From the IMG/VR virus record IMGVR_UViG_3300020390_000002, positions 1 through 64,000 of that record: a stretch of DNA of 64,000 bases, one strand, 5' to 3'. This document shows, piece by piece, positions 1 through 42,490 of this stretch; positions within the stretch are counted from its first letter, which is position 1; every line of letters begins with the position of its first letter. Source of the stretch: a virus. The notes beneath the pieces are model-generated. The model was given only the letters and a program-made list of their open reading frames with translations, was not told the origin of the DNA and made no database searches. Made by a program: the position numbers and the translations under genes.

Positions 1-133
1 TTACCGGGGGCGTCGCCGGCGGCGGGGCCGGGGGTTCAGGATTGGGAGCACCGCCGCTACCCTGTCCAGGGTCGCCGGCGTCGGTCGCTGTGTTCATCGG
101 CCCGTACTTGAGCCATTGGTTCCGGATAAGCAT
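1..133 (-). CDS. Probable head scaffolding protein, N-terminal part (runs off window start)
   Basis: ATG at 133 with GAGGA RBS; MLIRNQWLKYGPMNTATDAGDPGQGSGGAPNPEPPAPPP is a G/P-rich N-terminus; lies directly downstream of portal. Confidence 0.6.
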   Translation of the reverse strand, partial: MLIRNQWLKYGPMNTATDAGDPGQGSGGAPNPEPPAPPPATPPV

Positions 134-201
134 CTACAGTCCTCTGGCCAGTCTCTCGGCCGTCGTGGTTGGGGTGACCTGTCTCTCGGTCGGTTCTGGG
201 C

Positions 202-1713
202 CTATTCCGCCGTCGCGGTTTGGGCTCCGGGTTGGTCGGCTGAATTGCCGGCCGGGTCTTGTTCGGCCGGGTCTGTCGGCCAGTCATTGATCTGTTGCTT
301 CAGGCGCGCTTTCAGGTCGCGCGACATCTGCGGGAACAACTTGCGAGCAACGACATCCATCTGGCTCTGCTGGAGCGCCTGCGGCGCGTTGAGCAGCGAC
401 AGGCGCGAAGCGATCTCGATGTCGTCGAACAGCCCGCGGACGTCGAAGTCCTTCGGGTAGGTGACCGGCTCGAATCGGTCCAGGTCGCGGCTGCGCGGCT
501 TGCCGGTCCACAGATCGACCAGCTGAGCCAGTCGATTCTCGGCGCGGTTGAGGGTCGCGGCCTTGGAGGCCAGCAGCGAGTTCACCCGCTCGAAGTCGTA
601 GGCTTTGGCTACGCCTGAGCTGTTGTCGATGCCGACCGCGTTGTCCTGCTTGGTGCGCTCACCCGCCATGCCGACGGTGTGATAAATCTCGTTGATGATC
701 GTCTTGATCACCGTGATGATCAGCTCGGCCTGGGTCGGGTCTGGCGACAGGTAGTGCGGCTTGTTGCCACCCTCACCGCCGTCGTAGACGAAGATGCGCT
801 TGGTGCCCAGCTCCAGCAGCTTCTTGTAGGTGTCGTCCTGCGCCGAGATGTTCTGCGCCGGCATGGCCAGCTGCGAGAACGTCTGGTCCTGGATGATCGC
901 GTCGAGGTTGCTCAGGTAGTTGGCAACCGCGCGGTCCAGGTAGGCGATGTCATTGATCAGCGACGGGCTGTGATACAGGTCTTCCGAGACGCCCATATGG
1001 TCGACCGGGAAGCCCGGCACCACGCCGAGTCCGTGAACGCCGGAGGCGACCTGAACGATCGGCCCGTCGTGTTCGTCCCCGGACGCCTGAAATAGCATCC
1101 ACTCGTTGCGCGTCCAGAGCCGATACTGCTCGATCACGTCGCCGGTGCAGTTCAGCGGGTCGGTGTCGTCGCGGTCGTGCTCGAGAAACAGCACCCAGAG
1201 CGGCACACCCATGCGGTCATAGCCGACATCCAGCACGTTCTGGGGGCGCACGATGTAGGCGTAGATCCGCGCATCCTGCTCACGCTGGTCGGCCAGGTTC
1301 TTCGTGCCGCCGGTGGCGGTCGAATCGGTCATCACCCAGATGCGGCCGAACGTGGACGACTTGGTGTCGACCAGACGCATGAACTGGGAGATGTCCTGCC
1401 CGTCGCGGGTGGCGCAGTGCCAGAAGTCGCGGAGCACTTCGCTCGCGCCTTCGTCGTTGCGCAGGATCTCGCCTTTGAAAATGTACTTCGACACGAGATT
1501 GACCACCTCGCGCGAATGGTTGAACCGATAGGCCCGGTTCACACGGGCGCGGTATTCGCCGCGACCTTCCTTGTGATACTTGAAGACGTTGTCCTTGAAC
1601 CACGCCCGGCCGCCGCGATACGTGGATTCGACGAAGTCCCAGTGGGGCTTCATCGCGTCGTAATCGGGGTGACGGCGCTTGACTAGCTTGTCCAGTGCAG
1701 TTTCTTGGGGCAA
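202..1713 (-). CDS. Portal protein
   Basis: 503 aa immediately after terminase; TTG start with GAGGA RBS; HPDY...W start and SGVAKAYDF motif typical of siphovirus portals. Confidence 0.85.
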   Translation of the reverse strand: MPQETALDKLVKRRHPDYDAMKPHWDFVESTYRGGRAWFKDNVFKYHKEGRGEYRARVNRAYRFNHSREVVNLVSKYIFKGEILRNDEGASEVLRDFWHCATRDGQDISQFMRLVDTKSSTFGRIWVMTDSTATGGTKNLADQREQDARIYAYIVRPQNVLDVGYDRMGVPLWVLFLEHDRDDTDPLNCTGDVIEQYRLWTRNEWMLFQASGDEHDGPIVQVASGVHGLGVVPGFPVDHMGVSEDLYHSPSLINDIAYLDRAVANYLSNLDAIIQDQTFSQLAMPAQNISAQDDTYKKLLELGTKRIFVYDGGEGGNKPHYLSPDPTQAELIITVIKTIINEIYHTVGMAGERTKQDNAVGIDNSSGVAKAYDFERVNSLLASKAATLNRAENRLAQLVDLWTGKPRSRDLDRFEPVTYPKDFDVRGLFDDIEIASRLSLLNAPQALQQSQMDVVARKLFPQMSRDLKARLKQQINDWPTDPAEQDPAGNSADQPGAQTATAE

Positions 1714-1784
1714 GGACAGTCCTCGGTGTAAGGTGCAATTATCTCAACAAAGGCGCTGGCGATCAAGTCAGCGCTGACTTATTT

Positions 1785-3023
1785 TTACAGCGAAATACCG
1801 GCCAGCGTGTGCTTGATGATCGGGAACTCGAACTCGAGCGGGTAACCCAGCGCGTCGGTCGCGTGTTCGGCGCCCGCCTGCTTGTCGATGTCGCGCGACC
1901 CCGGCTTGTAGATCGTCTGTTCGAGCGACTTGATGGTGTTCTTGCAGGACTCGTCGATATGCAGGCGCACCACACCGGAGGCGGTCTCCAGCAGCGAGTT
2001 GACCGCGTTCACGCGGTCGGCGATCGGCGGGTGCTTCTTGCGGTGCTTGATCTTCCTGAAGCCGGCCTGGCGGAACACGTCCAGATCGGACTCACCGCGC
2101 CCGGACTGTCGATAGCTGCCGGCCGGATCGGGGTAGATCGTGACGGCGTCCTGCCAGCGCCAGAACTTGCGATCGAGCGCCGCACAGACGTCGGCCGTGT
2201 TCGAACTCGGCAGATATATCTCGTCGACCACCCACAGCTCGCCGGAGGGCTGCGGCTGGATGATCACGCTCGACATCGGGTCGATGTTGAAGTCCTGCCC
2301 GACCCAGATCGGCAGACCCGGGTTGAAGGGGAACTTGCCGACGTGCTTGGTGCGATCGAACGGGTAGTAGACGCGCCCGGCCATCGACTCGAAGCTCGCC
2401 TCGTACTCCTGACGGAACGTCTTGGGGTCCAGCTCGTTGCGCGCGGCCTCGATCTCCTCCGGCGGCACGAACGGCGACTGTGACGTCGGGAACTGCCAGG
2501 ACTTCCACACGCCCGCCTGCTGGTAATCGCCGCGCTGGCCCATGCGGTAGTGGTCGTAGAGGATGTTGAAGCCCTTGGGCGTGCCCTGAATCAGCGCGCC
2601 GCCGCGGGTGGCCGACAGGGTCGGTCGGATGACCTTGCCCCAGACGTCGGGCTTCATGTCCTGGGCCTCGTCGAGGACCACGTAGTGCAGACCCACGCCG
2701 CGCAGGGTGTCAGGCTTGTCCGCGCCCTTGAGCTCGATCACCGAGCCGTTGATGAGCAGGATGCGCAGGCGCGTGTCGTTGATCTTCTTGATCCAGCGCC
2801 GCGGGATCGCGTCCTTGAGCTCTTCCCACATGATGTCGCGCGCCATCTGATAGGTCGGCGCGACATACCAGATGCGCTGCTTTTTCTTCTTGCCCGCCTT
2901 GTCGATCATGATCACGCGGGCCAAAAACGTCTTGCCGGATCGGCGCCCCGCCACCATCGTCTTGAATCGGTGCGGCGCAGAGTAGACCTCGAGCTGCTTG
3001 GGGTGCAGCGGCAGCGCAGGCAT
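1785..3023 (-). CDS. terL: Terminase large subunit
   Basis: Walker A AGRRSGKT, Walker B VVLDEAQD, coupling motif GTPKG, nuclease motifs GQDFNIDP and HATDALGY. Confidence 0.95.
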   Translation of the reverse strand: MPALPLHPKQLEVYSAPHRFKTMVAGRRSGKTFLARVIMIDKAGKKKKQRIWYVAPTYQMARDIMWEELKDAIPRRWIKKINDTRLRILLINGSVIELKGADKPDTLRGVGLHYVVLDEAQDMKPDVWGKVIRPTLSATRGGALIQGTPKGFNILYDHYRMGQRGDYQQAGVWKSWQFPTSQSPFVPPEEIEAARNELDPKTFRQEYEASFESMAGRVYYPFDRTKHVGKFPFNPGLPIWVGQDFNIDPMSSVIIQPQPSGELWVVDEIYLPSSNTADVCAALDRKFWRWQDAVTIYPDPAGSYRQSGRGESDLDVFRQAGFRKIKHRKKHPPIADRVNAVNSLLETASGVVRLHIDESCKNTIKSLEQTIYKPGSRDIDKQAGAEHATDALGYPLEFEFPIIKHTLAGISL

Positions 3024-3688
3024 TATCCGGAGATGTCCGCGCCATCCAGGTCGGATTCGCTCAGGTCGTCGAGATCCTCGGCGAGCTTGTCGTCGCTGTA
3101 GTTCTGCAGGTGCTCGGCCAGTTCGTCGTCGTTCTGGATCACGTGCAGGCGCGCGATCTCCTCGGCGGTCAGGCCGCGGATGATCAGCTCCGGCAGCTCC
3201 TCGTCCAGGCCGACATCCTTGTCGAGGCCCAGCAGCGTCCAGCGCTCCTCACGCGCGATCTTGCAGATTTCGATCGCCACCTTGATCGCCTTGAGGTTGG
3301 CCATCGCGGTGGCCATCGGGTTGCCCTTATTTCGGGCCGCGGCCAGCTCGGCCATGCCCAGGCGCGCGAGCATCTGCGCCCACTTGTAGTGCTCTTCCTT
3401 GGTCTCGCGAATCTTGATCAGCAGCTCGGCGCCGTCGTTGGCACCGGCTTCAGCGATACTGTCGCGAACCGCGGTGGCCACATCCTTGGAGCCCTTGACG
3501 ACGCCGCGCTTGGTGAAGCGACGGGACAGCGTCTCGTGACGCACGCCGAAGCGTTCGGCCAGCTGCTTGAGGGTGAACTCGCCGGAGGCCCACAGGGCTT
3601 CGGCTTCTCCCCACTGGGTGGGCGTCAGACGATTCGACTTGGGGGTAGCGATGCGTGCAGCCAGATCATCGCGCTTGGACTTGGCCAT
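3023..3688 (-). CDS. terS: Terminase small subunit (N-terminal HTH)
   Basis: HTH TLKQLAERFGVRHETLSRRF; acidic tail; abuts terL start. Confidence 0.75.
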   Translation of the reverse strand: MAKSKRDDLAARIATPKSNRLTPTQWGEAEALWASGEFTLKQLAERFGVRHETLSRRFTKRGVVKGSKDVATAVRDSIAEAGANDGAELLIKIRETKEEHYKWAQMLARLGMAELAAARNKGNPMATAMANLKAIKVAIEICKIAREERWTLLGLDKDVGLDEELPELIIRGLTAEEIARLHVIQNDDELAEHLQNYSDDKLAEDLDDLSESDLDGADISG

Positions 3689-4310: not shown

Positions 4311-4634
4311 TCACTGATCGCTGATGCTCGCGTCCGTTTTCTCTTGATGCGGGCCGGGTGCGCGCCCCACGTGCTTATAGAGATCGCGCCCCATGACCTG
4401 CATGCCGAGCACGGTGGCTGCGATCACGCGCCGGTTGCGCTCCCTGCGGGTCTCGCAGTCGAGCTTGGTGAGCAGCCCCTTCTTGACCAGAAACCGAATC
4501 GAGCACTGCAGCGCCTGGCGCTTGCACTCGTAGGACAGGCGCTCGTGGATCTGCCCCATGTCCAGCCACTGCCCCGCCCCGTCGCCGCGGGAGACGATGT
4601 TGAGGATTTCGATCTGCTTGGCAGTCAGTCGCAT
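4311..4634 (-). CDS. Winged-helix DNA-binding protein
   Basis: LTAKQIEIL...SIRFLVKKGLLTK...RRVIAATVLG, MarR/wHTH-like pattern. Confidence 0.65.
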   Translation of the reverse strand: MRLTAKQIEILNIVSRGDGAGQWLDMGQIHERLSYECKRQALQCSIRFLVKKGLLTKLDCETRRERNRRVIAATVLGMQVMGRDLYKHVGRAPGPHQEKTDASISDQ

Positions 4635-4825
4635 GGCTTGTCGCGCTCCATCGCGTCCAGATAGGCGGCCCGCTCAGGCGTCCAGGGCAGCGCCATGTCG
4701 AGCCCCTCGTGGCTGTAGAACTCCAGCCGGCAGCGCTGGCACACAATGCGCGCGCAGTGCGCGTTGTAGCGGTGCGCGACATGCAGATCGTGACCCTTGA
4801 AGATGCAGAGCAGGGATTGCCACAT
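4625..4825 (-). CDS. Hypothetical Cys/His protein
   Basis: MWQSLLCIFKGHD...CQRC; coupled to neighbours. Confidence 0.55.
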   Translation of the reverse strand: MWQSLLCIFKGHDLHVAHRYNAHCARIVCQRCRLEFYSHEGLDMALPWTPERAAYLDAMERDKPCD

Positions 4826-4827
4826 CG

Positions 4828-5085
4828 CTAGTCCTCGATCAGTTGATTGGCATGGGTGGAGATACGCGGGCCGAACGGCTCTTCGCCCAGGCGCGTGAAG
4901 TCCCAGCGCCCGAACAGATCCTTGTCGCAGTCGGCGCATCGATAGCCCACATGCCAGCCGTGATCGATGCGCAGCAGCGTCGGGTGCTTGCAGGTGTTCT
5001 GATGCCACCAGCGCACCAGCCGACGAGCCCAGCGCGCCAGCGCCTGCTTGAACCGCTCCACCGCGAGCCGGATTTTCTCGATCAT
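4828..5085 (-). CDS. Hypothetical zinc-finger-like protein
   Basis: CKH...CADC; start overlaps upstream stop. Confidence 0.55.
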   Translation of the reverse strand: MIEKIRLAVERFKQALARWARRLVRWWHQNTCKHPTLLRIDHGWHVGYRCADCDKDLFGRWDFTRLGEEPFGPRISTHANQLIED

Positions 5086-5306
5086 GAGTCGCTGACCTCG
5101 CCCTGATCCTCGACCGACTCGAACCAGACATCGAAGGCCGGGTCGCCGCGCTCGATGCTGTAGCCGAAGGCGCCGTAGGAATCGCGAGTCAGGCCCAGCG
5201 ATGCCTCGTAGCTGTCGTGATGGAAGGTGCGGACGGTGCCGTCCATCGGATACAGCACGGTGCCGGCCGGAATGACCACGTCGTGCTTCAGACGAATTGC
5301 CCTCAT
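5082..5306 (-). CDS. Hypothetical protein
   Basis: ATG with GGAGA RBS; phage-like codon use. Confidence 0.6.
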   Translation of the reverse strand: MRAIRLKHDVVIPAGTVLYPMDGTVRTFHHDSYEASLGLTRDSYGAFGYSIERGDPAFDVWFESVEDQGEVSDS

Positions 5307-5366
5307 GGGGTCTCCTTTCGTGATTCGCGAACTGGAATGGTGGGCGGGACCGGGCACTCCCGATCG

Positions 5367-5600
5367 TCAGTCGTTGCCGACCTCCCCTTGCGGGCCGCCC
5401 GTTGATTTTTCGAACACAGCGATCCGATCGCCCAGCACGACGCTGAGCGAGCACATCAGGCAGTGCTGGCGCCGCAGCAGCCTCCGCTCATCCGGGGCGA
5501 GATCGGCGAACTGATAGGTGCCCAGGAAATAGCCCAGATTGGCTCTTCGCCTATCGAGATCGGCCTTCTCTTCGACGACGCGCTGCTGAAGCGGTGTCAT
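5367..5600 (-). CDS. Small helical phage protein (crAss001_48-like)
   Basis: QQRVVEEKADLD...F..L...ERRLL..Q...M......L..RI pattern. Confidence 0.6.
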   Translation of the reverse strand: MTPLQQRVVEEKADLDRRRANLGYFLGTYQFADLAPDERRLLRRQHCLMCSLSVVLGDRIAVFEKSTGGPQGEVGND

Positions 5601-6499
5601 GCAGATTCCCCCTGAAGGTTGGTGAGTCGCGACAGATCCAGCGGCTGGTCGTGGCGCTGCCAGTCGAACGCCGACAGCGGCAACCGGGCCGGCAGCTCGC
5701 GGCCGGCATCGGGGTTGGTGTAGCAGCCGTACATCGGCGAGCTGAATACCAGCTGATTGATGTTCTTGAGCAGCTCCGGGGTCGCCATGCCGGCGACATG
5801 CTCGACGCCGTCGTTGTTCTTGCGCCCGGTCTTCTCGGTCGCCGAGTGCTTGTAGTAGAACGCCTTGAGGTCGCGGATCGCCTTCTTGCGCAGCCCCGAC
5901 GGCATGGTCTCGATCTCTTCCAGGATCGCCTCGGAGTCCGCCGGGTGGGCGTCGAAATACCGCGCCATGAGCACGATGCCCTGGTCGTACATCTTCGCCA
6001 GGGTCGGCTCGTTGAACACGAAGCCGGCGCGCATGGCGAAGGGGTTGAACTTGCTCATCGAGGAGGCCAGCTCGGTGTAGCGCTTGCCTTCCATACGACA
6101 GGCCAGGTTGAGCATCCGATAGCTCACGCCGACGCTGCGATAGAGCGTATCGACGACGGTGCGGCTGCAGGTGTTGAAGTTCCGGTTGATGAACTTCGCC
6201 CGGTAGACGTTGGTGACCTTGGTCTCGACGCCCGGCTTGAGCTTGGGGAACATGATGTGGCGCTGGGCGAGCAGCAGACGCGGCACGCACAGAACGACCA
6301 CACCCACCAGCTGCGGGCCATGCTCGGTCTCGAGCATGCAGCGCCAGTAATGCGGGCCGACCAGATTGCCTTCCGCCTTGTAGTGGAAGCGATGCAGTCG
6401 GTCCCAGTCGGCGGTCACGCCGCGCTCGACATACATCCGGTCGAGCAGGGAAAACGGCTGGGCGTCGCCGGAGCGGCGCTCGATGGTGACGTCACGCAT
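5597..6499 (-). CDS. GNAT-fold acetyltransferase-like protein, putative DNA-modification enzyme
   Basis: SRTVVDTLYRSVGVSYRML resembles GNAT acyl-CoA motif A; MSKFNPFAMRAGF C-terminal motif; next to ABC ATPase and ParB genes. Confidence 0.7.
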   Translation of the reverse strand: MRDVTIERRSGDAQPFSLLDRMYVERGVTADWDRLHRFHYKAEGNLVGPHYWRCMLETEHGPQLVGVVVLCVPRLLLAQRHIMFPKLKPGVETKVTNVYRAKFINRNFNTCSRTVVDTLYRSVGVSYRMLNLACRMEGKRYTELASSMSKFNPFAMRAGFVFNEPTLAKMYDQGIVLMARYFDAHPADSEAILEEIETMPSGLRKKAIRDLKAFYYKHSATEKTGRKNNDGVEHVAGMATPELLKNINQLVFSSPMYGCYTNPDAGRELPARLPLSAFDWQRHDQPLDLSRLTNLQGESA

Positions 6500-6806
6500 C
6501 GGCAGCGATCAGCTGCGCCAGGGTGCGCAACTGGCGCTGCCCGTCGATCATCACCGCCAGCAGCACGGTGTCCCGGGCCTTGTAGATCGGATTGCGGCGA
6601 TAACCGTCGGTGAGCACCACGCCCGAATAGAGCATGCCGCGGGTGTGCATTTCGTCCCACCCGTAGACCAGCGGCGTATGCAGCTTGTCCTCGGCCGTCT
6701 CCGCGCTGCTGCGCTCGTGGCAGTAGCCTCGGAACAGGTTGACGTTGCCGGCGAGCACGAGGATCGGCTTCGGCCGGCGCCACTTCTTCTTCGGGGTGTT
6801 GATCAC
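6492..6806 (-). CDS. Hypothetical protein
   Basis: Overlaps both neighbours in the operon. Confidence 0.55.
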   Translation of the reverse strand: MINTPKKKWRRPKPILVLAGNVNLFRGYCHERSSAETAEDKLHTPLVYGWDEMHTRGMLYSGVVLTDGYRRNPIYKARDTVLLAVMIDGQRQLRTLAQLIAADA

Positions 6807-7456
6807 GAGCGGCGCTCCGGGTAGGTGGATACAGCGACCCGGTTCTCGTAGTGCTTGGTCACCACGAGGGTCGGGTTGAGATCGAATTCGAGATCGCTGT
6901 GGGTAGTGGCCACCAGCACGGTTGCGCCAGCCTCGCGCGCCATCTTCTGCAGGCAGAAGGCCACGACCTTGGCGGTGTCGCGATCCAGGGTCGCGCCGAA
7001 CTCGTCAGCGACCCAGACGGTCGCGCCGGACTCGATGACCTTGGCGAGCTTGAAGCGATACTTCTGCCCGTCGGAGAGCTGACTCGGCGAGCGCACGAAC
7101 AGATAGGCGTCGTTGAGCCCGGCCATCGACAGCAGACGCACGGCGTCCGCCATGTTCTCGCCCACCTGGTCGATCAGGGGGCGCTCGTCGTATTGCACCT
7201 CGTCGAGCGAGGCGACGCGCAGCCACTCCTGGGTGCGCATCTGACGATGCAGTTCCTTGAGCAGCTGCGACTTGCCCGAGCCGGACTGGCCGGTGATATA
7301 GACCACGTCGCCCTGCAGCACCTCGAGCTTCAGCCCCTCGTAGAGCACGAACTCCTTGTTCGCCAGGCCGATGCCGAAGGCTTCGGCGCACTCGAGCACT
7401 CGCGGGGTGCGATCGACACGCGAGGAGAACGACTTGCTGATGACGTATTCGGTCAT
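6803..7456 (-). CDS. Soluble ABC-type ATPase
   Basis: GQSGSGKS, signature LSDGQ, Walker B WVADEF, H-loop ATTH; no permease nearby. Confidence 0.9.
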   Translation of the reverse strand: MTEYVISKSFSSRVDRTPRVLECAEAFGIGLANKEFVLYEGLKLEVLQGDVVYITGQSGSGKSQLLKELHRQMRTQEWLRVASLDEVQYDERPLIDQVGENMADAVRLLSMAGLNDAYLFVRSPSQLSDGQKYRFKLAKVIESGATVWVADEFGATLDRDTAKVVAFCLQKMAREAGATVLVATTHSDLEFDLNPTLVVTKHYENRVAVSTYPERRS

Positions 7457-8115
7457 GCCGGCAGCCCGCTGTGCTTCTCGGCGTACATCAGGAAGGCATC
7501 CAGCCCCTCGGCTTCGGTCTCCTCCTCGATGCGCCCGATGAAGGCGGCCACGATCTTCTGCATGGTCGCGGGGACCCTCTTGAACCCCAGCAGGTCGGTG
7601 ATCGCCACGTCGCCCTTCTTGGCGTTCTCGATCGCGGCTTCCTGGGTGCGGGTCTGGGCATCCACGGAGGCGCCCAGATCGATGACCACCTTCTCGTCGC
7701 TGAAGTCGCCGAGATCGGCGGTCAGAAAGTCCAGCTCGCGCGCGTCGAAGCCGGTGTTGAGCAGGTCGTCGGTCATCGCCAGCGCGGCCAGCTCGGCCTG
7801 CAGCAGCTCGGTGTCGTAATCGGTCGAGGAGACGCGGTTGTCGGCCAGGCGAGCCGCCTTGACCTGGTCGGGGGTGAGATCGTCACGCACGATCACCGGC
7901 ACCTGGGTCATGCCCAGCTTGAGCGCCGCCAGGCGCCGGCCGTGCCCCTTGATGATCACGCCGTCGGCGTCGACCACGATCGGCTGATCCCAGCCGTGCT
8001 CGCTGATCTGCTGGGCGAGCTTCGTGACCTGCAGCTCGTCGTGGATCTTGGCGTTCTTTTCGTAGGGCAGGATGGTCTCGATGTCCCGCGCGACGATCTT
8101 GAGCTTGTCGGTCAT
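7453..8115 (-). CDS. ParB/Srx N-terminal domain protein
   Basis: PYEKNAKIH...GWDQPIVVD...IIKGHGRRLAA...RLADNR. Confidence 0.9.
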   Translation of the reverse strand: MTDKLKIVARDIETILPYEKNAKIHDELQVTKLAQQISEHGWDQPIVVDADGVIIKGHGRRLAALKLGMTQVPVIVRDDLTPDQVKAARLADNRVSSTDYDTELLQAELAALAMTDDLLNTGFDARELDFLTADLGDFSDEKVVIDLGASVDAQTRTQEAAIENAKKGDVAITDLLGFKRVPATMQKIVAAFIGRIEEETEAEGLDAFLMYAEKHSGLPA

Positions 8116-8262
8116 TTACCAGCCCTCGCTGAAATCAAGCGGCTCGCGCTCGTCGACGGGCTCGTATTGCTCGCCGGCCGGGCACTCGTCACAGACGTCG
8201 GAGTTGCAGTCCTCGAAGTTCACGCAGGAAAGGCACTCCGGGAAACGGATTCGGTCATTCAT
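8116..8262 (-). CDS. 48-aa Cys-rich protein (not in ORF track)
   Basis: MNDRIRFPECLSCVNFEDCNSDVCDECPAGEQYEPVDEREPLDFSEGW fills the gap between the two ParB genes. Confidence 0.7.
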   Translation of the reverse strand: MNDRIRFPECLSCVNFEDCNSDVCDECPAGEQYEPVDEREPLDFSEGW

Positions 8263-8950
8263 GGCTTGGCCCCTTCCCCTGGGCCGAATGGGTGATGAGA
8301 TGGAGTAGCGCGTTGCCGGCGTTGATCTCGGCGAGGTCGTCGGTGAACGACTGCGTGCGCATGATCTTTTCGATGACGTCGGTGACCACGTGGGCGTCCT
8401 TGACGGGCACGCGGAACTTGATCGTCTGATGGGTGGGCGGTGCCGTGGGCTCCAGCGGCGCGGTCGTCACCGTGGTGGGCTCATCGGGGAAGCCGATGCT
8501 GTCCAGATCGATGTCGGTGGCGGCGAAGATCGCGTCCACATCGGTCATCTCGATCGGCAGCAGTTCCACCAGGGTGTCGGCGCCCAGCTCACGGAAGATG
8601 TCGGCAAGCAGCAGGCTGTCGTCGGTGCCGTAGCGGCCGTTGTCGATCAGCCCGATCTCCTTCGCCTGTGCGTCGTCGATCGGCCCCAGGTTGATGACCG
8701 GCACGCTGGCCAGACCCATGCGCTCGGCGACCTTGACGCGGTGCGCGCCGCCCAGGATTTCGAGCTGGCCGTCGGCACGCTCGCGCACCAGCACGGGCTT
8801 GAACATGCCGTTGCGACGGATGGACGCCTCGATCTTCACCTCGTTCTCGGGACCGACCACGTTCGGGTTCCACGGATTCGGGTGCAGCCGAGACGGATCG
8901 ATCTTGAGGATTTCGTGTGCGTCCAAAAAAGATTCTCCCAGGGGTTGCAT
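8255..8950 (-). CDS. ParB/Srx N-terminal domain protein
   Basis: LHPNPWNPN...GMFKPVLVRE...EILGGAHRVK; exact start uncertain. Confidence 0.88.
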   Translation of the reverse strand: MQPLGESFLDAHEILKIDPSRLHPNPWNPNVVGPENEVKIEASIRRNGMFKPVLVRERADGQLEILGGAHRVKVAERMGLASVPVINLGPIDDAQAKEIGLIDNGRYGTDDSLLLADIFRELGADTLVELLPIEMTDVDAIFAATDIDLDSIGFPDEPTTVTTAPLEPTAPPTHQTIKFRVPVKDAHVVTDVIEKIMRTQSFTDDLAEINAGNALLHLITHSAQGKGPSHE

Positions 8951-8973
8951 TTAAGTCAGTGCTGACTTACTAT
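8937..8973 (+). promoter_or_regulatory. Sigma70-like promoter with palindromic operator in spacer
   Basis: CCC-N5-TTGCAT-N17-TACTAT; TAAGTCAGTGCTGACTTA at 8952-8969, between divergent operons. Confidence 0.75.
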
Positions 8974-10696
8974 GACTGCACGTTTTATCACGAATGAGGC
9001 GCCACAGGCAACAGAAACCGTGAGCAGGATCATCCAAATAGCCCATAATGCGGTCAACGCGATGCTGGTTAAGCCAGACGAGGCCGTACAGCTAGAGGCT
9101 CAGCAGATGCTGAGCTATATGGTTGAGGGTGCAGAGCGTTCCGCGGCCTATCAGGCTGCCGAATGGGATGGTCGGTCGACGTTCTTCGACTTCCGCAACA
9201 ACGGTTTCCCCACTGGCTTCGTCGAGCTGGTCAAGCGTCGTCTGACCAAGCTCGGCTACGAGGTCAAGATCGTGCGCAAGCCCCTGCCGGCCGCGCTCGG
9301 CCCGACCCATCCGGTCGTTGACACGTTTGCGGTCGATCCCCGTTACGAGTATCAGCCGCGCACCGTGGATCTGCTGATCAAGCACGGCATGATGATCGCC
9401 CAGGTCGCCACCGGCGGCGGCAAGTCGCGCATCGCCAACCTGGCCACCGCGCGGATCAAGCGCCCCACCCTGTTCATCACCACCCGCTCGGTGCTCATGC
9501 ACCAGATGAAGGACGCCTTCGCGGCAGCCCTGAAGGTGCGGGCCGAGAACGGCGAGCCGGATCTGCGCAATGCCGAAGTTGGGGTCATGGGCGACAAGGA
9601 ATGGCGCCCGCGCGGCTATATCAACGTCGCGACCGTGCAGACCCTGGCCGCGCGGCTGCGCGAGCCCAATTTCGTGATCTCTTCGAAGAAGAAGGGCAAG
9701 GACGGCAAGCCGTTGAGCTCCGAAGAGCGCGAAGCCCTGGGCGTGGCGCAATACCGGCGCATGAAAAAGCGTCGCGAGGAGACCCTGCGGCTGCTGAGCC
9801 TGTTCCAGTTCGTGATCGCCGAGGAAGCCCATGAGGCCGGCGGCGACACCTTCTTCCAGATCATGCGCCACTGCACCCGCGCCCACTACCGGCTGGCGCT
9901 GACCGCGACGCCGTTCATGCGCGCGGACGCAGAATCGAACATGCGCCTGATGGCCTCCTGCGGGCCGATCGGCATCCGGATCACCGAGAAGCTGCTTATC
10001 GATCGCGGCATCCTCGCGACCCCGAGCTTTCGCACCATCGTGACCGGCTACGCGCCCGACAAGGACGCCCTCGCCCTCTACGAGAAACCCAAGCCCGGCA
10101 AGACGCGCATCTCGACGGTGCTGGGCAACACGTCCTCCTACCAGCGGGCCACCAAGCTCGGCATCGATTTCAACCTGGCGCGCAACCGCGCGATCGTCGG
10201 CGAGTGCGTGCGCGCGCGCCGCTACGGCCTGCCCGTGATCGTGCTCGTGAACCACACGGTCCACGGCAAGATCGTGCTGGCGATGCTGGAAGCGGCCGGC
10301 CTGAACGCGCAGTTCATCTGGGGCGACGACGACAGCGCTGCGCGCCGGGCTGCCCTGCTGGGCCTGGCCGGCGGCATGCTCGATGTCGTGATCGGCTCCA
10401 CGATCCTCGACGTGGGCGTCGATGTGCCCAGTGTCGGGATGATCATTCTGGCCGGCGGCGGCAAGGCTGAAGTGGCCCTGCGTCAGCGCATCGGCCGCGC
10501 GCTGCGCGAGAAGAAGGACGGCCGCCCCAATCGCGCCTTCATCGTCGACTTCGCCGACGACTTCAATATCCACCTGCGCCGGCACGCCATGACCCGACGC
10601 GCAATCGTCGCGGACACCCCCGGCTTCGTCGAGAACCAACTGCCTGTCGGGGCGGACTTCGACTTCACCGGCTTCGAATTACAGGAGATCGCATGA
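8972..10696 (+). CDS. SF2 DEAD/DEAH-like helicase
   Basis: ATGGGKS, variant motif II AEEAH, LTATP, DVGVDVP, QRIGRALR; true start may be GTG 9020. Confidence 0.92.
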   Translation: MTARFITNEAPQATETVSRIIQIAHNAVNAMLVKPDEAVQLEAQQMLSYMVEGAERSAAYQAAEWDGRSTFFDFRNNGFPTGFVELVKRRLTKLGYEVKIVRKPLPAALGPTHPVVDTFAVDPRYEYQPRTVDLLIKHGMMIAQVATGGGKSRIANLATARIKRPTLFITTRSVLMHQMKDAFAAALKVRAENGEPDLRNAEVGVMGDKEWRPRGYINVATVQTLAARLREPNFVISSKKKGKDGKPLSSEEREALGVAQYRRMKKRREETLRLLSLFQFVIAEEAHEAGGDTFFQIMRHCTRAHYRLALTATPFMRADAESNMRLMASCGPIGIRITEKLLIDRGILATPSFRTIVTGYAPDKDALALYEKPKPGKTRISTVLGNTSSYQRATKLGIDFNLARNRAIVGECVRARRYGLPVIVLVNHTVHGKIVLAMLEAAGLNAQFIWGDDDSAARRAALLGLAGGMLDVVIGSTILDVGVDVPSVGMIILAGGGKAEVALRQRIGRALREKKDGRPNRAFIVDFADDFNIHLRRHAMTRRAIVADTPGFVENQLPVGADFDFTGFELQEIA

Positions 10697-19099: not shown

Positions 19100-19241
19100 A
19101 CCCCTGGAAAAATACGGCGGCTGGGCGTAGCGATAGATGTATGCTACATCTAAGACTTTGCTTGTATGCTACACACAGTCATCCATCTGTATGTAGCGCG
19201 CATTCATGTGCTTGTGTGTTACATGCAGGAATGCAGTGCAC

Positions 19242-19275
19242 AAAAAAAGCGCGCTAGTCGTGAGACTAGCACGCT
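19242..19275 (-). terminator. Rho-independent terminator
   Basis: AGCGTGCTAGTC-TCAC-GACTAGCGCGC followed by T7 on minus strand. Confidence 0.85.
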
Positions 19276-19293
19276 GTGTGCTGCGCTCTACTA

Positions 19294-19560
19294 CTAGAGC
19301 GCTTCTAGTTCGAGCATGAGCATCTTGTGTGCACGGATCGCGCGCTGAGCGCGCTGGATCGCGTCCATGCTCATGCGATGCGTGCGCTTGTTCATGTAGC
19401 GAATCGAGCGCTTGCATGCGTCGATGAACGCGCGATCATCTGCGCGTCGCGATTCGCTGGATCGATTCGCGGAAAGCTTCAGATAAACGCGCATCGCGTC
19501 CACGTCCGCGCTATCGAATGCTTTATGTATTGCTTGCGGATTCATGCTGATTAGTTTCAT
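19294..19560 (-). CDS. Hypothetical basic protein with no Gly
   Basis: 88 aa; own promoter and terminator. Confidence 0.7.
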   Translation of the reverse strand: MKLISMNPQAIHKAFDSADVDAMRVYLKLSANRSSESRRADDRAFIDACKRSIRYMNKRTHRMSMDAIQRAQRAIRAHKMLMLELEAL

Positions 19561-19601
19561 TGTGCTGATTGTTTTAGTGTCATGCGATATTGCACGATTT
19601 A

Positions 19602-19638
19602 ATATTAGCACACTGTTTATGCTTGTGCGCATCTTGGC
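19602..19638 (-). promoter_or_regulatory. Promoter of the 88-aa gene
   Basis: GCC...TGnTAATAT; shares G(C/T)GCACAAGC...AGTGTG with the promoter at 20315-20342. Confidence 0.65.
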
Positions 19639-19653
19639 AAACTTTTTTTGCAC

Positions 19654-19682
19654 AAAAAAGCGCGCTCAAATGAGCGCGCTTT
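19654..19682 (-). terminator. Rho-independent terminator
   Basis: AGCGCGCTCA/TGAGCGCGCT hairpin plus T-run. Confidence 0.85.
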
Positions 19683-19698
19683 GTGACTCAGCGCTGAT

Positions 19699-20268
19699 TT
19701 ACTTATACAGCGCGACTAGAGCGACGATGAACGGATGCTTTCTGTCGAGCGTCCACGTGCGACGCTTCGCGTCTTTGTCCGTTTTCTGTTCCGTGACGCA
19801 TCCGAGCAGCTTCAGCATATTCATAAAGTAGATCGCTTGCGTGTCCGTCACGTGATTCATCTGCGCTTGAATCTCGCGATTGCTGAACGTTTTCTGACTA
19901 TGCTTCGCTTTGATATAGTGCAGTGCAGCGTCTGCTGCGTTGTCCTTCACGCTCGCGAGCGTCGCATTGACAGACAACGCTGTCATCATGCTTGTGAAGC
20001 GCTTCAGAAACTCGCGTGATTGACGCGCGACATGCGTCGGATTGATCGCGAAAGTCTCCATTGTCGCGAGCGCTTCATCGCTGCACTTTTCCATGCGTGC
20101 GATATACTGAGCATGCGTATCCGCAGTCTTTGCGAGCGCGTTGTCCTCCGGAGTCTGGAGCGCTGCATGCTTGTCGCGCGTCGCTTCGAACTCAGCGCGG
20201 ACACTTGCGAATGCTTCGCGAGCGTTCGAGACAAAAACGTTCGTGCTGTTGTTGTTCGTGCTATCCAT
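19699..20268 (-). CDS. Hypothetical protein, paralog of 30794-31357, putative C-terminal wHTH
   Basis: AAGGAAG RBS; shared ED..L.....THA, P..V...SREF.KR and H.T.TQA.Y......LG.V motifs. Confidence 0.8.
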   Translation of the reverse strand: MDSTNNNSTNVFVSNAREAFASVRAEFEATRDKHAALQTPEDNALAKTADTHAQYIARMEKCSDEALATMETFAINPTHVARQSREFLKRFTSMMTALSVNATLASVKDNAADAALHYIKAKHSQKTFSNREIQAQMNHVTDTQAIYFMNMLKLLGCVTEQKTDKDAKRRTWTLDRKHPFIVALVALYK

Positions 20269-20754
20269 GATCGTGCTTCCTTTGTAGTGTGCGTGGATGC
20301 TTTCCACAATTCAAACTATACACACTTTTTGCGCTTGTGCACGTTTTTCTGAAAAATATTTTGCATTGTTTTCTATCGTCGTTCGAAAAACGATAGTGCA
20401 AAACTATCGCTGTTCTATTCCTTCAAACACGCGCGAGCGCGCGCGAGTAGCACACTTTTCAAGATAGTGTCAATTTATTTTTGTAAATATTTTTCTTGCA
20501 CAATCCTGCAAAGCATGATCCAGATTCCTGCGCGCGTGCTCATAGTCCGCGCGCGGCGTCAACGATCGGCAGTGATTTATTTTCGCTGCGTGATACAGCG
20601 ATTTTCGTGTAGGATGCACGCATAATAGTTGTACTATACATGCACAATAGCTGCACTATGCAGACGATTTTCGGCGGCACGGCGGATGGCACGGCCTGGC
20701 GTGCGGCGAACGGCAGGCGCCGCGGCACGGCCCTTGGCCACAGCGCCGCGGGCA

Positions 20755-30793: not shown

Positions 30794-31357
30794 TCAGGCG
30801 GCGACTGCCTCCTTGCCCTTCTCGGCGATCGAAGCCATCGCCGGATTGTCGTAGTCGAAGGTCATCGTGGTCTCGATACCCTGGCCCCGGACGCTGGAGA
30901 CGCCGCCGAGTTCCATGAAGAAGGTCTTGATGTAGTTCGCCTGGGTCGCCGTCTTGTGCCCGGTGACGCGCATGATCTTGGCGTAGTCCAGCGTCGCCGG
31001 CTTCTTCGCCTCGATCAGCTCGATCACTGCGCGCAGCGGCTTGTCCGCCACCGCCTGCCGGAGACCCTTCGCGAACGCCACGATCGCCAAGCGCTTCTTG
31101 AACTCGCGCGAACCGGCTTCGACCTTCACCGGGTCGAGGTTGTTGCTCTCGCACCAGCCGATCGCATCGTCCGGCAGCTTGAACAGCACCTCCGCCATCT
31201 TCGCGTGGGTCTTGCTGGCGGATACGAGCTTCGCATCCTCCATGTCGCCGTGCGCCTCGAAGCGCGCCTGGGCTTCCTTCGCCGTGTTCAGACGACTCTT
31301 GATGGCGTCCTTCATGACCTTGCGGAACTTGGTGGTGTATTCATTCTTCTGCGTCAT
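30794..31357 (-). CDS. Hypothetical protein, paralog of 19699-20268
   Basis: GAGG RBS; terminator hairpin at 30766-30787. Confidence 0.8.
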   Translation of the reverse strand: MTQKNEYTTKFRKVMKDAIKSRLNTAKEAQARFEAHGDMEDAKLVSASKTHAKMAEVLFKLPDDAIGWCESNNLDPVKVEAGSREFKKRLAIVAFAKGLRQAVADKPLRAVIELIEAKKPATLDYAKIMRVTGHKTATQANYIKTFFMELGGVSSVRGQGIETTMTFDYDNPAMASIAEKGKEAVAA

Positions 31358-31674
31358 GGTGTTACCTCTCATGCTGTGTGTGAATTGACACTTTCGTGCC
31401 TGTTTTTCTATGTCGCTTATTTCCCTGCGACAACTATAGTTTCGTGGAGGCGACGCGGCTGCGCAATAGATTTTTACGGCTAATTTCAACGCCTTGCGAT
31501 TTCACCACAAGAAAGGCAAAGCGAGGCGTTGCGTCGAATCCAGCGCTCCATGCTCGGATATGTCTTATCTTTTGCCGTCGCTTAGAAGCGCTCACACGCG
31601 CTCGCCCTGCGAAGACGATACGACGCGCTCAGTGCATCCGCGCATCGGACAGAACCGCGGCTGAAGCCGGATAC

Positions 31675-36945: not shown

Positions 36946-37350
36946 CTACAGGTCCTGGGACGCCATTATCGTGACCACTACCTCGCCCTCGTCGCCGGGG
37001 CCGACGTTCACGAACACGCGGTTAAGCTCAATCTCCTGGTCCGGATACCTCAGCGCCGGAACCTCGAACTCCAGGTCGCCTGAAACCGGCTTGTCCCTGG
37101 TCGCAAGCATGTGGCGCATGGCCTCATGCAGCAGTATGTATTCGCGCGCGGTCTCGTAGCCCAGGCGTTCCATCGGCTCCTCGCTCGGCCAGGCGACGTT
37201 CTCGTTCCAGCAGTTGATGGCGATTGCCACCGGCACCTTGAAGCCCATCGCAGCGGCGCCATCGGTGACGTCTTTCAGGACGCCATCCTCGAGGGCTTGC
37301 GCCCTAGAGTAGGTGAAGATCGGCTCGCCGAAGATGTCGTCCATGCTCAT
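36946..37350 (-). CDS. Hypothetical protein (DUF6573-like)
   Basis: YSRAQALEDGVL.DV...GPGDEGE.VVTIM. Confidence 0.7.
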   Translation of the reverse strand: MSMDDIFGEPIFTYSRAQALEDGVLKDVTDGAAAMGFKVPVAIAINCWNENVAWPSEEPMERLGYETAREYILLHEAMRHMLATRDKPVSGDLEFEVPALRYPDQEIELNRVFVNVGPGDEGEVVVTIMASQDL

Positions 37351-42082: not shown

Positions 42083-42490
42083 CTATGCGGTCGCGTGGGA
42101 GCCGCCCGTGTGGACGGCATCACAGCCGGAGCCGCCCGTGTGGGCGGGGATGTAGCCGAAGTCCTGGCGCTGACGCACTACGCGCAGGGGCTCATTGCCC
42201 GAGTCGAGGCGGGTGCAGATCGTCAGCTCCGCTTTCGGCAGATTCCACCGCGCGACCTCGTTGCCGGCGTGGAAGAACAGGCCGAACATGCCGTTGTTGC
42301 GATCGGTGACGACCATCGACTGATCGAACCGCACGCCGAGCGCCTCGAGCGCGAGCTGGCCGAAGTTGATGCCTTCGATCGTGACGCCGCCGCAGACACT
42401 GCGCCGCAGGCCACGTGCGCCGTGCTTGTTGCGCAGGTCATCCATGCGATGACCGACCTGGGCCAGAATTACGTCTTGCTTGGTTTCCAT
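42083..42490 (-). CDS. Hypothetical protein
   Basis: TGATG coupled to thyA. Confidence 0.5.
   Translation of the reverse strand: METKQDVILAQVGHRMDDLRNKHGARGLRRSVCGGVTIEGINFGQLALEALGVRFDQSMVVTDRNNGMFGLFFHAGNEVARWNLPKAELTICTRLDSGNEPLRVVRQRQDFGYIPAHTGGSGCDAVHTGGSHATA

What the first reader, a model, noticed from the sequence alone, without database searches (positions are those of the whole stretch)
5597..8950. ParB-CysRich-ParB-ABC ATPase-ORF-GNAT operon upstream of terminase: candidate DNA-modification writer
A tightly coupled operon co-oriented with terS/terL/portal. The ABC ATPase has no permease, the ParB proteins have no adjacent ParA, and the GNAT has a degenerate acyl-CoA motif (YRSVGVS). 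No methyltransferase is present in the operon. The chemistry and target cannot be read from sequence; the composition anomaly predicts GG[CGT].
Basis: partly seen in the sequence, partly recalled or inferred. Interest (0 to 1): 0.75.

Follow-up and report, generated by a model that had tools for sequence, protein, structure and literature searches.

The report
Phage ParB–ABC ATPase–acetyltransferase module beside terminase
The operon is real and is one more copy of a very widespread, never-tested phage gene set (two ParB-like switches, a soluble ATPase and an acetyltransferase-fold enzyme next to the DNA-packaging genes) that was already predicted in the literature to acylate a DNA base; the proposed GG[CGT] target is not supported by comparison with related phages.

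Summary
Observation confirmed. On the minus strand, 8950-5597, six genes overlap start-to-stop: ParB1, a 48-aa Cys-rich ORF, ParB2, an ABC ATPase, ORF104 and a 300-aa GNAT-fold protein. A seventh small ORF, a wHTH gene, terS, terL and portal follow.

Only ParB1, ParB2, ABC and GNAT (plus the wHTH) are conserved. The small ORFs sit in variable slots.

ABC and GNAT are one polypeptide in many other phages (phrog_11143, COG2401 type). There too a ParB_N gene precedes them and the terminase follows.

The GNAT motif is not degenerate: R121-x-x-G124-x-S, with R and G invariant.

Iyer/Aravind (2013, restated in PMC7824862) already predicted that a GNAT coupled to an ABC ATPase makes an uncharacterised acyl modification of a DNA base. 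This scan has noted the module 98 times in 83 genomes. It is therefore a new member of a known, untested kind.

The GG[CGT]-free block (19124-20555) is real: 1 site against about 132 expected. Syntenic GG-free islands occur in nickie, RHEph10 and several metagenomic relatives. However, 23 of 38 classifiable module-bearing relatives, and five unrelated module-bearing phages, have none. The link to this operon is unproven.

The parts
8255..8950 (-). ParB1: a ParB/Srx N-terminal NTP-binding fold, then an acidic linker and a small C-terminal domain; no HTH was called
   Evidence: PF02195 4.3e-11; phrog_723 1.5e-58. Orthologues in nickie, SSU5, RHEph10 and BUCTxx99 at 35-44% identity. The GGAHR and IDNGR motifs are read from the sequence.
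8116..8262 (-). 48-aa acidic ORF with 5 Cys (zinc-knuckle-like); variable accessory gene
   Evidence: No family match. Its only homologue among five relatives is RHEph10 gp084 (44% over 32 aa, E 4e-6). Nickie has an unrelated ORF in this slot, and SSU5 and BUCTxx99 have none.
7453..8115 (-). ParB2: ParB CTPase-fold domain with the GHGRR P-motif, an acidic linker and a C-terminal helical domain
   Evidence: phrog_930 9.7e-81. It is nearest to the ParB domain of ParB-methyltransferase fusions (phrog_498 4e-38; PADLOC MTase_II 8e-25). AF2 model pLDDT 82; Foldseek matches Noc and ParB bound to CDP/CTPgS at E 5e-7. G57, H58, G59 and R60 are invariant.
6803..7456 (-). Soluble ABC-type ATPase (nucleotide-binding domain only)
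   Evidence: PF00005 1.3e-11; phrog_293 3.9e-41; phrog_11143 (the fused ABC-GNAT family) 3.6e-23. Walker A, signature, Walker B and H-loop are intact. PDB sequence matches are ABC NBDs and UvrA. More than 2,100 close homologues.
6492..6806 (-). ORF104: basic orphan protein in a variable slot between ABC and GNAT
   Evidence: No Pfam, PHROG, NCBIfam or PADLOC hit. No homologue in five syntenic phages. The Atlas gave no usable hit. The slot holds unrelated genes in relatives: DUF2829 in RHEph10 and nothing in BUCTxx99.
5597..6499 (-). GNAT-fold acyltransferase with a helical insert of about 90 aa (phrog_886)
   Evidence: phrog_886 2.1e-114. AF2 model pLDDT 85.7. Foldseek gives probability 1.0 to many GNATs. 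VIA-align gives Z 10-11, with 120 chains at Z>=8, all GNAT in the 50 rows shown. H39, Y40, K41, R80, H81, R121, G124, N152 and other residues are invariant.
5370..5600 (-). ORF77: seventh translationally coupled small ORF (ATGA overlap with the GNAT stop); orphan
   Evidence: Read from the sequence. No homologue in relatives.
4311..4634 (-). Small winged-helix DNA-binding protein, a conserved companion of the module
   Evidence: tblastn 41% over 79 aa to SSU5_130 and 37% over 86 aa to the BUCTxx99 ORF that directly follows the GNAT gene.
202..3688 (-). terS (3688-3023), terL (3023-1785) and portal (1713-202), co-oriented downstream
   Evidence: phrog_867 7e-50; Terminase_6N and phrog_2 3e-53. 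The same order holds in nickie, SSU5, RHEph10, BUCTxx99 and JGB6.
8972..10696 (+). Divergent UvsW-like SF2 helicase, strictly syntenic with the module
   Evidence: ResIII, Helicase_C, UvsW_N; phrog_16 3e-83. In 80 IMG/VR loci found with this helicase, every locus with enough flank carries the module.
9029..9057 (-). Promoter-like site upstream of ParB1 (TTGACC-17-GATGAT)
   Evidence: Consensus scan only. No minus-strand terminator-like site lies inside the operon.
19124..20555 (.).
   Evidence: 1 site against about 132 expected, with 35 GGA/TCC. Site-free gaps of 512 and 919 bp against a mean spacing of 8.3 bp.

Best explanation
This is the split, two-ParB form of a very widespread phage module.

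Components:
- Two ParB/Srx-fold nucleotide-switch proteins.
- A soluble ABC-type ATPase.
- A GNAT-fold acyltransferase.
- A small winged-helix protein.

The module is co-oriented with, and directly upstream of, terS, terL and portal, which have a promoter-like site of their own. The ATPase and the acyltransferase work as one enzyme, because they are a single polypeptide in many other phages.

Proposed mechanism:
1. Late in infection the ParB proteins bring or hold this enzyme on replicated double-stranded phage DNA.
2. ATP-driven closing of the ABC heads clamps or opens the duplex.
3. The GNAT domain transfers an acyl group to an exocyclic amine of a base. The donor could be acetyl-CoA or, as in Mom, an aminoacyl-tRNA.
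4. The DNA that is packaged is therefore chemically marked, presumably against host nucleases.

Shown here: the genes, their coupling, the folds and motifs, the ABC-GNAT fusion in relatives, and the recurrent ParB-before and terminase-after layout.

Inferred: DNA as the substrate, the donor and the base, the timing, and the protective purpose.
For: - Gene coupling and domains.
- GNAT fold with invariant R-x-x-G and an HYK motif.
- Intact ABC catalytic motifs and no membrane partner.
- Rosetta-stone fusions. A profile search gave 906 hits, many of 450-560 aa with ABC at the N-terminus and the GNAT family at the C-terminus. Others are PolB-ABC-GNAT (1260 aa) or carry TFIIB repeats.
- The fused phrog_11143 type (366-409 aa, ABC_tran plus Acetyltransf) sits after a ParB_N gene in Leptospira LE3, Pasteurella Pmp13 and Gordonia BiggityBass, where the terminase follows, and in Arthrobacter EastWest.
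- In metagenomic relative L094 a fused phrog_11143 gene replaces ABC+ORF+GNAT in the same slot, between ParB2 and the wHTH gene.
- The four-gene core is syntenic in nickie, SSU5, RHEph10, BUCTxx99 and JGB6, and in all 60 IMG/VR loci with enough flank.
- ParB2 has a ParB CTPase fold plus a C-terminal helical domain, and no DNA-binding domain was called. The same NBD+CTD build is reported for ParBs that activate a phage thymine dioxygenase on dsDNA (PMC13229309).
- A GNAT acting on dsDNA has a precedent in Mom (PMC13219725).
[quoted passage not shown] The pT24 genes are phrog_11143.
Against: - No experiment or read-level data show a modified base in any phage with this module.
- GNATs mostly act on proteins and small molecules.
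- The fold match to Mom (Z 9.9) is no better than to dozens of other GNATs, and there is no sequence match to Mom.
- ParB-fold proteins also act as nucleases, kinases and partition clamps.
- The position next to the terminase would fit a packaging role as well.
- The 2013 paper that made the prediction could not be read here.
Confidence: 0.45

Rival explanations
1. The enzyme is DNA-associated but its substrate is a protein. ParB and the ABC heads place the GNAT on DNA, where it acetylates a DNA-bound protein. Candidates are terS, portal, a nucleoid protein or the host RNA polymerase. The purpose would be to switch packaging or host functions.
For: Most characterised GNATs, and most top structural matches (NatA, RimI, Naa50/60/80), are protein acetyltransferases. 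A phage GNAT that acetylates RNA polymerase is cited in PMC7824862. The module abuts terS/terL.
Against: Structural ties among GNATs carry no information on substrate. Fusion to DNA polymerase B and obligatory ParB partners fit a nucleic-acid substrate more simply. The candidate protein targets differ widely between the phages that share the module.
Confidence: 0.2
2. The module is a DNA-handling device for packaging or genome maintenance, for example marking or condensing concatemers or recognising the pac region. ParB clamps and an SMC/Rad50-like ABC ATPase do the work, and the GNAT-fold part serves as a binding or regulatory domain rather than as a transferase.
For: The module is constantly adjacent to terS/terL in unrelated phages. 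A wHTH gene and a helicase are fixed neighbours. Streptococcus phage Javan530 has ParB_N plus ABC with only a weak GNAT-like ORF behind it.
Against: The acyl-donor motif and many polar residues of the GNAT are invariant. This argues for catalysis. The ABC protein lacks any coiled-coil or DNA-binding insertion. The module also occurs away from terminases, for example at PolB fusions and in pT24.
Confidence: 0.15
3. One reading: the module writes a mark at GG[CGT] (GG in some relatives), and the GG[CGT]-free 1.4-kb block is a mark-free immediate-early region.
For: - The block is real: 1 site against about 132 expected.
- Syntenic islands exist in nickie (1137 bp with zero GG/CC) and RHEph10 (973 bp with one site).
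- Islands also occur in IMG/VR relatives, in two flavours: GG-free and GGB-free. L108 has 1289 bp and L094 has 472 bp.
- The island ORF of this phage is homologous to nickie gp019, which lies inside nickie's island.
- Carriers span 41-62% GC and different hosts. This favours a phage-intrinsic cause.
- No methyltransferase or TGT was found in the 91-kb record.
Against: - 23 of 38 classifiable module-bearing genomes or loci have no island of 350 bp or more within reach. SSU5 and BUCTxx99 have none genome-wide.
- Five unrelated phages with the fused module show no di- or trinucleotide-free island.
- Island presence and flavour are scattered on both the helicase and the GNAT trees, so nothing links them to the enzyme.
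- No operon-free relatives were available as a control.
- Avoidance of a nuclease or of a CRISPR PAM (type I-F uses CC, from my own knowledge) would explain an island without any writer.
Confidence: 0.1
4. The ATPase-acyltransferase acts on RNA or a small molecule, for example on tRNA or aminoacyl-tRNA as GNAT toxins do, on cytidine in RNA as TmcA/NAT10 does, or on a defence signalling nucleotide. It would then serve as a host-takeover or anti-defence function.
For: TmcA/NAT10 couple an ATPase to a GNAT to acetylate RNA cytidine, and NAT10 appears among weak Foldseek rows. tRNA-acetylating toxins (AtaT, TacT) are in the same tie group. The slot between ABC and GNAT collects accessory genes such as DUF2829 in RHEph10.
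Against: The NAT10 alignments have rmsd 15-16 A and are not meaningful. The ATPase here is ABC-type, not helicase-type. ParB partners, PolB fusions and terminase linkage are unexplained by an RNA or metabolite target.
Confidence: 0.08

Closest known systems
GNAT + ABC ATPase DNA-modification system predicted by Iyer, Zhang, Burroughs & Aravind (NAR 2013), restated in Iyer et al., Viruses 2021 (PMC7824862; example Tenacibaculum phage pT24)
   Same: It has the same two catalytic domains. The pT24 genes belong to phrog_11143, the fused ABC-GNAT family. That family matches this ABC protein (3.6e-23) and replaces the split genes in the syntenic relative L094.
   Different: Here the enzyme is split into two genes with an orphan ORF between them and is preceded by two ParB paralogues. 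The 2013 text could not be read, so whether it describes the ParB and terminase linkage is unknown. The function has not been tested anywhere to my knowledge.
COG2401 / 'MK0520': ABC-type ATPase fused to a predicted acetyltransferase domain
   Same: JGI and GenBank annotators give this name to homologues of both the ABC and the GNAT protein. The fused forms found here have ABC at the N-terminus and GNAT at the C-terminus.
   Different: This is a COG label without a known function. The phage form is split and embedded in a ParB/terminase context.
Mom of phage Mu (GNAT-fold enzyme that modifies adenine in dsDNA using Gly-tRNA; PDB 8bv8; PMC13219725)
   Same: GNAT fold (Z 9.9, 142 residues aligned), phage-encoded, and expressed late. 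It shows that a GNAT can acylate a base in dsDNA.
   Different: No sequence similarity was detectable. Mom works alone, without an ATPase or ParB. The structural match is no better than to unrelated GNATs.
ParB-dependent phage thymine dioxygenases (5mYOX + ParB; PMC13229309)
   Same: A short ParB with a nucleotide-binding domain and a C-terminal domain, but no evident DNA-binding domain, is encoded next to a DNA-modifying enzyme upstream of the terminase. That ParB is needed for activity on dsDNA. ParB2 here has the same build.
   Different: The partner enzyme here is an ABC-GNAT, not a Fe/2OG dioxygenase. There are two ParB paralogues. No activation has been shown.
Phage ParB_N-DNA methyltransferase fusions (phrog_498; PADLOC MTase_II; PMC12704722)
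   Same: ParB2 is most similar to the ParB domain of these fusions (4e-38 and 8e-25). They have the same late, terminase-proximal position.
   Different: No methyltransferase domain is present here. RefSeq labels of 'DNA methyltransferase' on the orthologues in nickie and RHEph10 are PHROG carry-over.
TmcA / NAT10 (ATP-dependent RNA cytidine N4-acetyltransferases)
   Same: The working principle of an NTPase coupled to a GNAT that acetylates an exocyclic amine of a base in a nucleic acid.
   Different: Their ATPase is helicase-type, not ABC, and their substrate is RNA. Only poor structural alignments were found.

Membership tests
Phage ParB-ABC ATPase-GNAT module (split: phrog_293 + phrog_886; fused: phrog_11143 / COG2401 type) | Soluble ABC-type ATPase with intact Walker A, signature, Walker B and H-loop, and no membrane domain | tested here: met
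   PF00005 1.3e-11; phrog_293 3.9e-41. The motifs GQSGSGKS, LSDGQ, VWVADE and TTH are conserved in 32 homologues.
Phage ParB-ABC ATPase-GNAT module (split: phrog_293 + phrog_886; fused: phrog_11143 / COG2401 type) | GNAT-fold domain with acyl-donor motif R/Q-x-x-G-x-G/A | tested here: met
   phrog_886 2e-114. Model pLDDT 85.7. GNAT matches at Z 10-11. R121-S-V-G124-V-S, with R and G invariant.
Phage ParB-ABC ATPase-GNAT module (split: phrog_293 + phrog_886; fused: phrog_11143 / COG2401 type) | ABC and GNAT are one polypeptide in relatives (Rosetta stone) | tested here: met
   Profile hits of 450-560 aa with ABC N-terminal and this family C-terminal. Fused 359-409-aa proteins in LE3, Pmp13, BiggityBass, EastWest and L094.
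Phage ParB-ABC ATPase-GNAT module (split: phrog_293 + phrog_886; fused: phrog_11143 / COG2401 type) | ParB_N protein encoded directly upstream, with the terminase genes downstream | tested here: met
   In this window. In nickie, SSU5, RHEph10, BUCTxx99 and JGB6. In BiggityBass, LE3, Pmp13 and Javan530.
Phage ParB-ABC ATPase-GNAT module (split: phrog_293 + phrog_886; fused: phrog_11143 / COG2401 type) | Acylation of a DNA base (the predicted activity) | not testable with these tools
   This is only a published prediction (PMC7824862).
Mom-type DNA adenine-modifying GNATs | Sequence relationship to Mu Mom | tested here: not met
   phmmer against all PDB sequences, which include 8bv8, found no match at E<=10 apart from an unrelated 37-aa peptide.
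Mom-type DNA adenine-modifying GNATs | Structural similarity above that to other GNATs, and equivalents of Mom R111/S124 | tested here: inconclusive
   8bv8 scores Z 9.9, tied with dozens of unrelated GNATs. Residue equivalence was not examined.
ParABS partition system | ParA partner ATPase | tested here: not met
   No PF13614 match in the 91-kb record, and none in the operon. The record is 83% complete.
ParABS partition system | Full-length ParB (TIGR00180 above cut-off, with an HTH DNA-binding domain) | tested here: not met
   TIGR00180 scores 38.6 and 32.3 bits against a cut-off of 58.45. Only the N-terminal domain matches. The ParB2 model shows an NBD, an acidic linker and a small helical C-terminal domain.
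ABC transporter | Membrane permease partner or fused transmembrane domain | tested here: not met
   No such domain occurs in any of the operon's proteins or neighbours. The partner in fusions is a GNAT.
ParB-dependent 5mYOX thymine dioxygenase systems | Fe(II)/2OG TET/JBP dioxygenase next to ParB | tested here: not met
   No such domain was found among the operon's proteins by Pfam, PHROGs or NCBIfam.

The most novel reading that the evidence does not exclude
In this group of roughly 100-kb phages, the ParB-ABC-GNAT enzyme writes a bulky acyl mark on G or C within GG (GG[CGT] in this phage) on the DNA that is packaged. The 0.5-1.4-kb GG-free islands a few kb beyond the helicase would then be mark-free cassettes. 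They could be read or used immediately after injection, before replication dilutes the mark. The two island flavours (GG-free and GGB-free) would report differences in enzyme specificity.
Probability: 0.1. Interest if true: 0.85.

Novelty: new member of a known kind. Interest (0 to 1): 0.42.

Why it matters
The module is one of the commonest unstudied gene sets next to phage terminases. More than 2,100 close ABC homologues and more than 900 profile hits for the GNAT part were found. It occurs in SSU5-type phage-plasmids of enterobacteria and in phages of Pseudomonas, Rhizobium, Stenotrophomonas, Gordonia, Leptospira and Pasteurella.

Databases label it 'ABC transporter', 'partition protein' or 'DNA methyltransferase'. 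All three labels fail the tests run here.

If the module acylates DNA, it would be the second GNAT-based DNA modification after Mom and the first that needs an ATPase and ParB. It could also yield a new tool enzyme.

Cultured carriers exist (nickie, SSU5, RHEph10), so the question can be tested directly. For this particular window the operon adds nothing new beyond another member. The unusual item is the GG-free island, whose tie to the operon is not supported so far.

Tried and rejected
The genomic contexts of the PolB-ABC-GNAT and TFIIB fusions could not be read.
No test of ParB2 binding to ABC/GNAT was run; alignments A1-A3 had been prepared for it.
There are no expression or read-level data.
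- The 2013 NAR paper is not held. Literature searches for COG2401, for 'ABC-type ATPase fused to', and for SSU5+ParB+ABC found nothing.
- A narrow HMM of the 300-aa family did not reach the fused phage proteins. The link was made through P0162, Pfam and phrog_11143 instead.
- ORF104 had no homologue or fold lead.
- A search for genes whose presence matches the islands (in this phage, nickie and RHEph10 but not in SSU5, BUCTxx99 or JGB6) gave only wrong-frame shadows.
- Partition and transporter readings were rejected (see the membership tests).
- The apparent lack of ABC/GNAT in L094 came from sequence divergence. That locus holds a fused phrog_11143 gene.

Full report
**The observation**

The window is 62% GC. 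It is the first 64 kb of a 91-kb viral record that CheckV puts at 83% complete. Identical proteins occur on a 109.5-kb contig.

On the minus strand, six ORFs run from 8950 to 5597. Their junctions are ATGAATGA, TAAATG, ATGA, GTGA and ATGCGTGA.

Pfam and PHROGs identify them as follows:
- ParB1: PF02195, phrog_723.
- A 48-aa ORF with five Cys: no family.
- ParB2: PF02195, phrog_930.
- An ABC-type ATPase: PF00005, phrog_293.
- ORF104: no family.
- A 300-aa protein: phrog_886, which is mislabelled 'ABC transporter ATP-binding subunit'.

A seventh ORF (5600-5370) overlaps the last stop by ATGA. A winged-helix gene (4634-4311), terS, terL and portal follow on the same strand. A UvsW-like helicase diverges from ParB1.

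A promoter-like site lies upstream of ParB1 and another lies before terS. No minus-strand terminator-like site lies inside the operon.

**The 300-aa protein is a GNAT**

An alignment of 34 homologues (47-59% identity) shows an invariant HYK and R80-H81. It also shows R121-x-x-G124-x-S, which is GNAT motif A with Ser at the last place, and an SMSKFNPF..AGF block.

The AlphaFold model (pLDDT 85.7) matches many GNATs. Foldseek gives probability 1.0. VIA-align gives Z 10-11, with 120 chains at Z>=8.

The core is formed by residues of about 20-165 plus strands at 257-274. A helical insert of about 90 residues lies between them.

Mu Mom (8bv8) is in the tie group at Z 9.9. It does not stand out, and there is no sequence match to it.

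**ABC and GNAT are one enzyme**

A profile search of 1.8 billion representatives gave 906 hits. Many are 450-560 aa, with this family at residues of about 200-480. Pfam shows an ABC_tran domain at their N-terminus. Some are fused further to DNA polymerase B (P0194, P0210) or to TFIIB repeats (P0165).

Annotators call both halves 'ABC-type ATPase with predicted acetyltransferase domain', the COG2401/MK0520 label.

The ATPase keeps all catalytic motifs and has no membrane partner.

**Synteny**

One layout holds in Pseudomonas phage nickie, Salmonella phage SSU5, Rhizobium phage RHEph10, Stenotrophomonas phage BUCTxx99 and Xanthomonas phage JGB6. It reads: helicase (divergent), then ParB1, ParB2, ABC, GNAT, wHTH, terS, terL and portal.

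Pairwise comparison shows that only ParB1, ParB2, ABC and GNAT (plus the wHTH) are conserved.
- The Cys-rich ORF is shared only with RHEph10.
- ORF104 and ORF77 are orphans.
- The slot between ABC and GNAT holds unrelated genes, such as DUF2829 in RHEph10, or nothing.

In 80 IMG/VR loci retrieved through the helicase, all 60 with enough upstream flank carry the four genes. The one apparent exception, L094, carries a fused 359-aa phrog_11143 gene in the same slot.

Outside this phage group, fused ABC-GNAT proteins of 366-409 aa (phrog_11143; Pfam ABC_tran plus Acetyltransf) follow a ParB_N gene in Gordonia BiggityBass, Leptospira LE3, Pasteurella Pmp13 and Arthrobacter EastWest. In the first three the terminase lies downstream. 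Streptococcus Javan530 has a ParB_N gene and an ABC gene before terL.

**The ParBs**

Both keep the arginine P-motif (GGAHR in ParB1, GHGRR in ParB2) and a DN..R motif.

The ParB2 model (pLDDT 82) has three parts: a ParB CTPase fold that matches Noc and ParB bound to CDP or CTPgS, an acidic low-confidence linker, and a confident C-terminal helical domain.

Neither ParB reaches the TIGR00180 cut-off. The record holds no ParA.

ParB2 is closest to the ParB domain of phage ParB-methyltransferase fusions.

**What is known**

Iyer et al. [quoted passage not shown] They cite their 2013 NAR paper and name phage pT24. The pT24 genes are phrog_11143.

The 2013 paper itself is not held.

Mom is described in April 2026 as adding dsDNA to the targets of the GNAT superfamily, with Gly-tRNA as donor (PMC13219725). 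This implies that the ABC-GNAT system remains untested.

A phage ParB made of an NBD and a CTD activates a thymine dioxygenase specifically on dsDNA (PMC13229309). ParB-fold fusions to methyltransferases and acetyltransferases are catalogued in PMC12704722.

This scan has already noted the module 98 times in 83 genomes, with follow-ups reaching the same reading.

**The GG[CGT] claim**

The block 19128-20554 (49.8% GC) has 1 GG[CGT]/[ACG]CC against about 132 expected, and 35 GGA/TCC. The genome mean is 120 +/- 19 per kb.

Comparable islands lie at syntenic places:
- nickie: 1137 bp without any GG/CC.
- RHEph10: 973 bp with one site.
- JGB6: a 254-bp stretch.

The island ORF 19699-20307 is homologous to nickie gp019, which lies inside nickie's island.

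Among the helicase-centred IMG/VR loci, islands of 350 bp or more occur in two flavours. The GG-free flavour is seen in L056-62, L083, L087 and L119. The GGB-free flavour is seen in L094 and L108, the latter spanning 1289 bp.

The island is therefore a real, recurrent feature of this phage group. The evidence against a link to the operon is as follows:
- 23 of 38 classifiable module-bearing genomes or loci lack an island within reach, and SSU5 and BUCTxx99 lack one genome-wide.
- Five unrelated module-bearing phages have no di- or trinucleotide-free island.
- Presence and flavour are scattered on both the helicase and the GNAT trees.
- No gene shares the island's phyletic pattern.
- No module-free relatives were available as controls.

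The operon does not predict the island. The link is an untested idea, not a finding.

**Other candidate writers**

No N6/N4 methylase, C5 methylase or TGT family matches the 91-kb record.

The conserved core otherwise consists of replication and nucleotide-metabolism genes. These include a ThyA gene with an HNH insert and a weak thymidylate-kinase-like P-loop protein.

**Verdict**

The operon is a genuine new member of a known, computationally predicted but experimentally untested phage system. DNA acylation around packaging is the most likely function (about 0.45). A protein target, a packaging role and an RNA or small-molecule target remain open. The specific GG[CGT] reading is kept only as the novel case (about 0.1).

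Noticed in passing
window 19124-20555; nickie (NC_042091.1) 103937-105074; RHEph10 (NC_034248.1) 99009-99982; L108 14898-16187; L094 17356-17828; L083 6957-7806; L087 13148-13828: GG/CC-free or GG[CGT]-free islands of 0.5-1.4 kb recur a few kb beyond the helicase in this group of roughly 100-kb phages. Gaps are 60-150 times the mean spacing. There are two flavours: all GG/CC avoided, or GGA/TCC tolerated. Carriers range from 41 to 62% GC. No explanation was found, and the islands are absent from many close relatives.
   Followed up: partly
window 19699-20307 (-), 30794-31489 (-), 37347-38105 (-): The larger ORF inside the island is homologous to nickie gp019, which lies inside nickie's own GG-free island. 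It has paralogues elsewhere in this genome that are not GG-free.
   Followed up: partly
L094 7437-8516 (-): In one metagenomic relative the split ABC + ORF + GNAT is replaced, in the same slot between ParB2 and the wHTH gene, by a single fused 359-aa phrog_11143 protein. This is a natural swap between the split and fused forms.
   Followed up: yes
L005 (RHEph10) 5393-5695: The variable slot between ABC and GNAT holds a DUF2829 gene in Rhizobium phages. From my own knowledge, DUF2829 is the Tad2 anti-Thoeris family, so the slot may collect anti-defence passengers. This phage's ORF104 is an orphan in the same slot.
   Followed up: no
L004 (Tenacibaculum phage pT24) 4854-5615 and 5685-6026: The pT24 ABC-GNAT (phrog_11143) is annotated as two ORFs that cover profile positions 1-244 and 266-353. 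This could be a frameshift or programmed slippage, as another finding of this scan (e1-3445088) reports for a different phage.
   Followed up: no
window 42490-43977 (-) and 40959-41564 (-): A thymidylate synthase carries an HNH endonuclease domain inserted at residues of about 143-271 (phrog_160 plus phrog_2081). A weak thymidylate-kinase-like P-loop gene lies nearby. Both are conserved in all five relatives. Whether the synthase is a true ThyA or a hydroxymethylase was not tested.
   Followed up: partly
window 4640-5600 (-): Relative to SSU5 and BUCTxx99, where the wHTH gene directly follows the GNAT gene, this phage has two or three extra small ORFs inserted between them, including 5600-5370 and 5357-5082.
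   Followed up: no
L007 (Xanthomonas phage JGB6): ParB1, helicase, terminase, capsid and the GNAT gene are each annotated in several pieces, and stops lie inside the GNAT match. This is probably sequencing or assembly error in that record.
   Followed up: no
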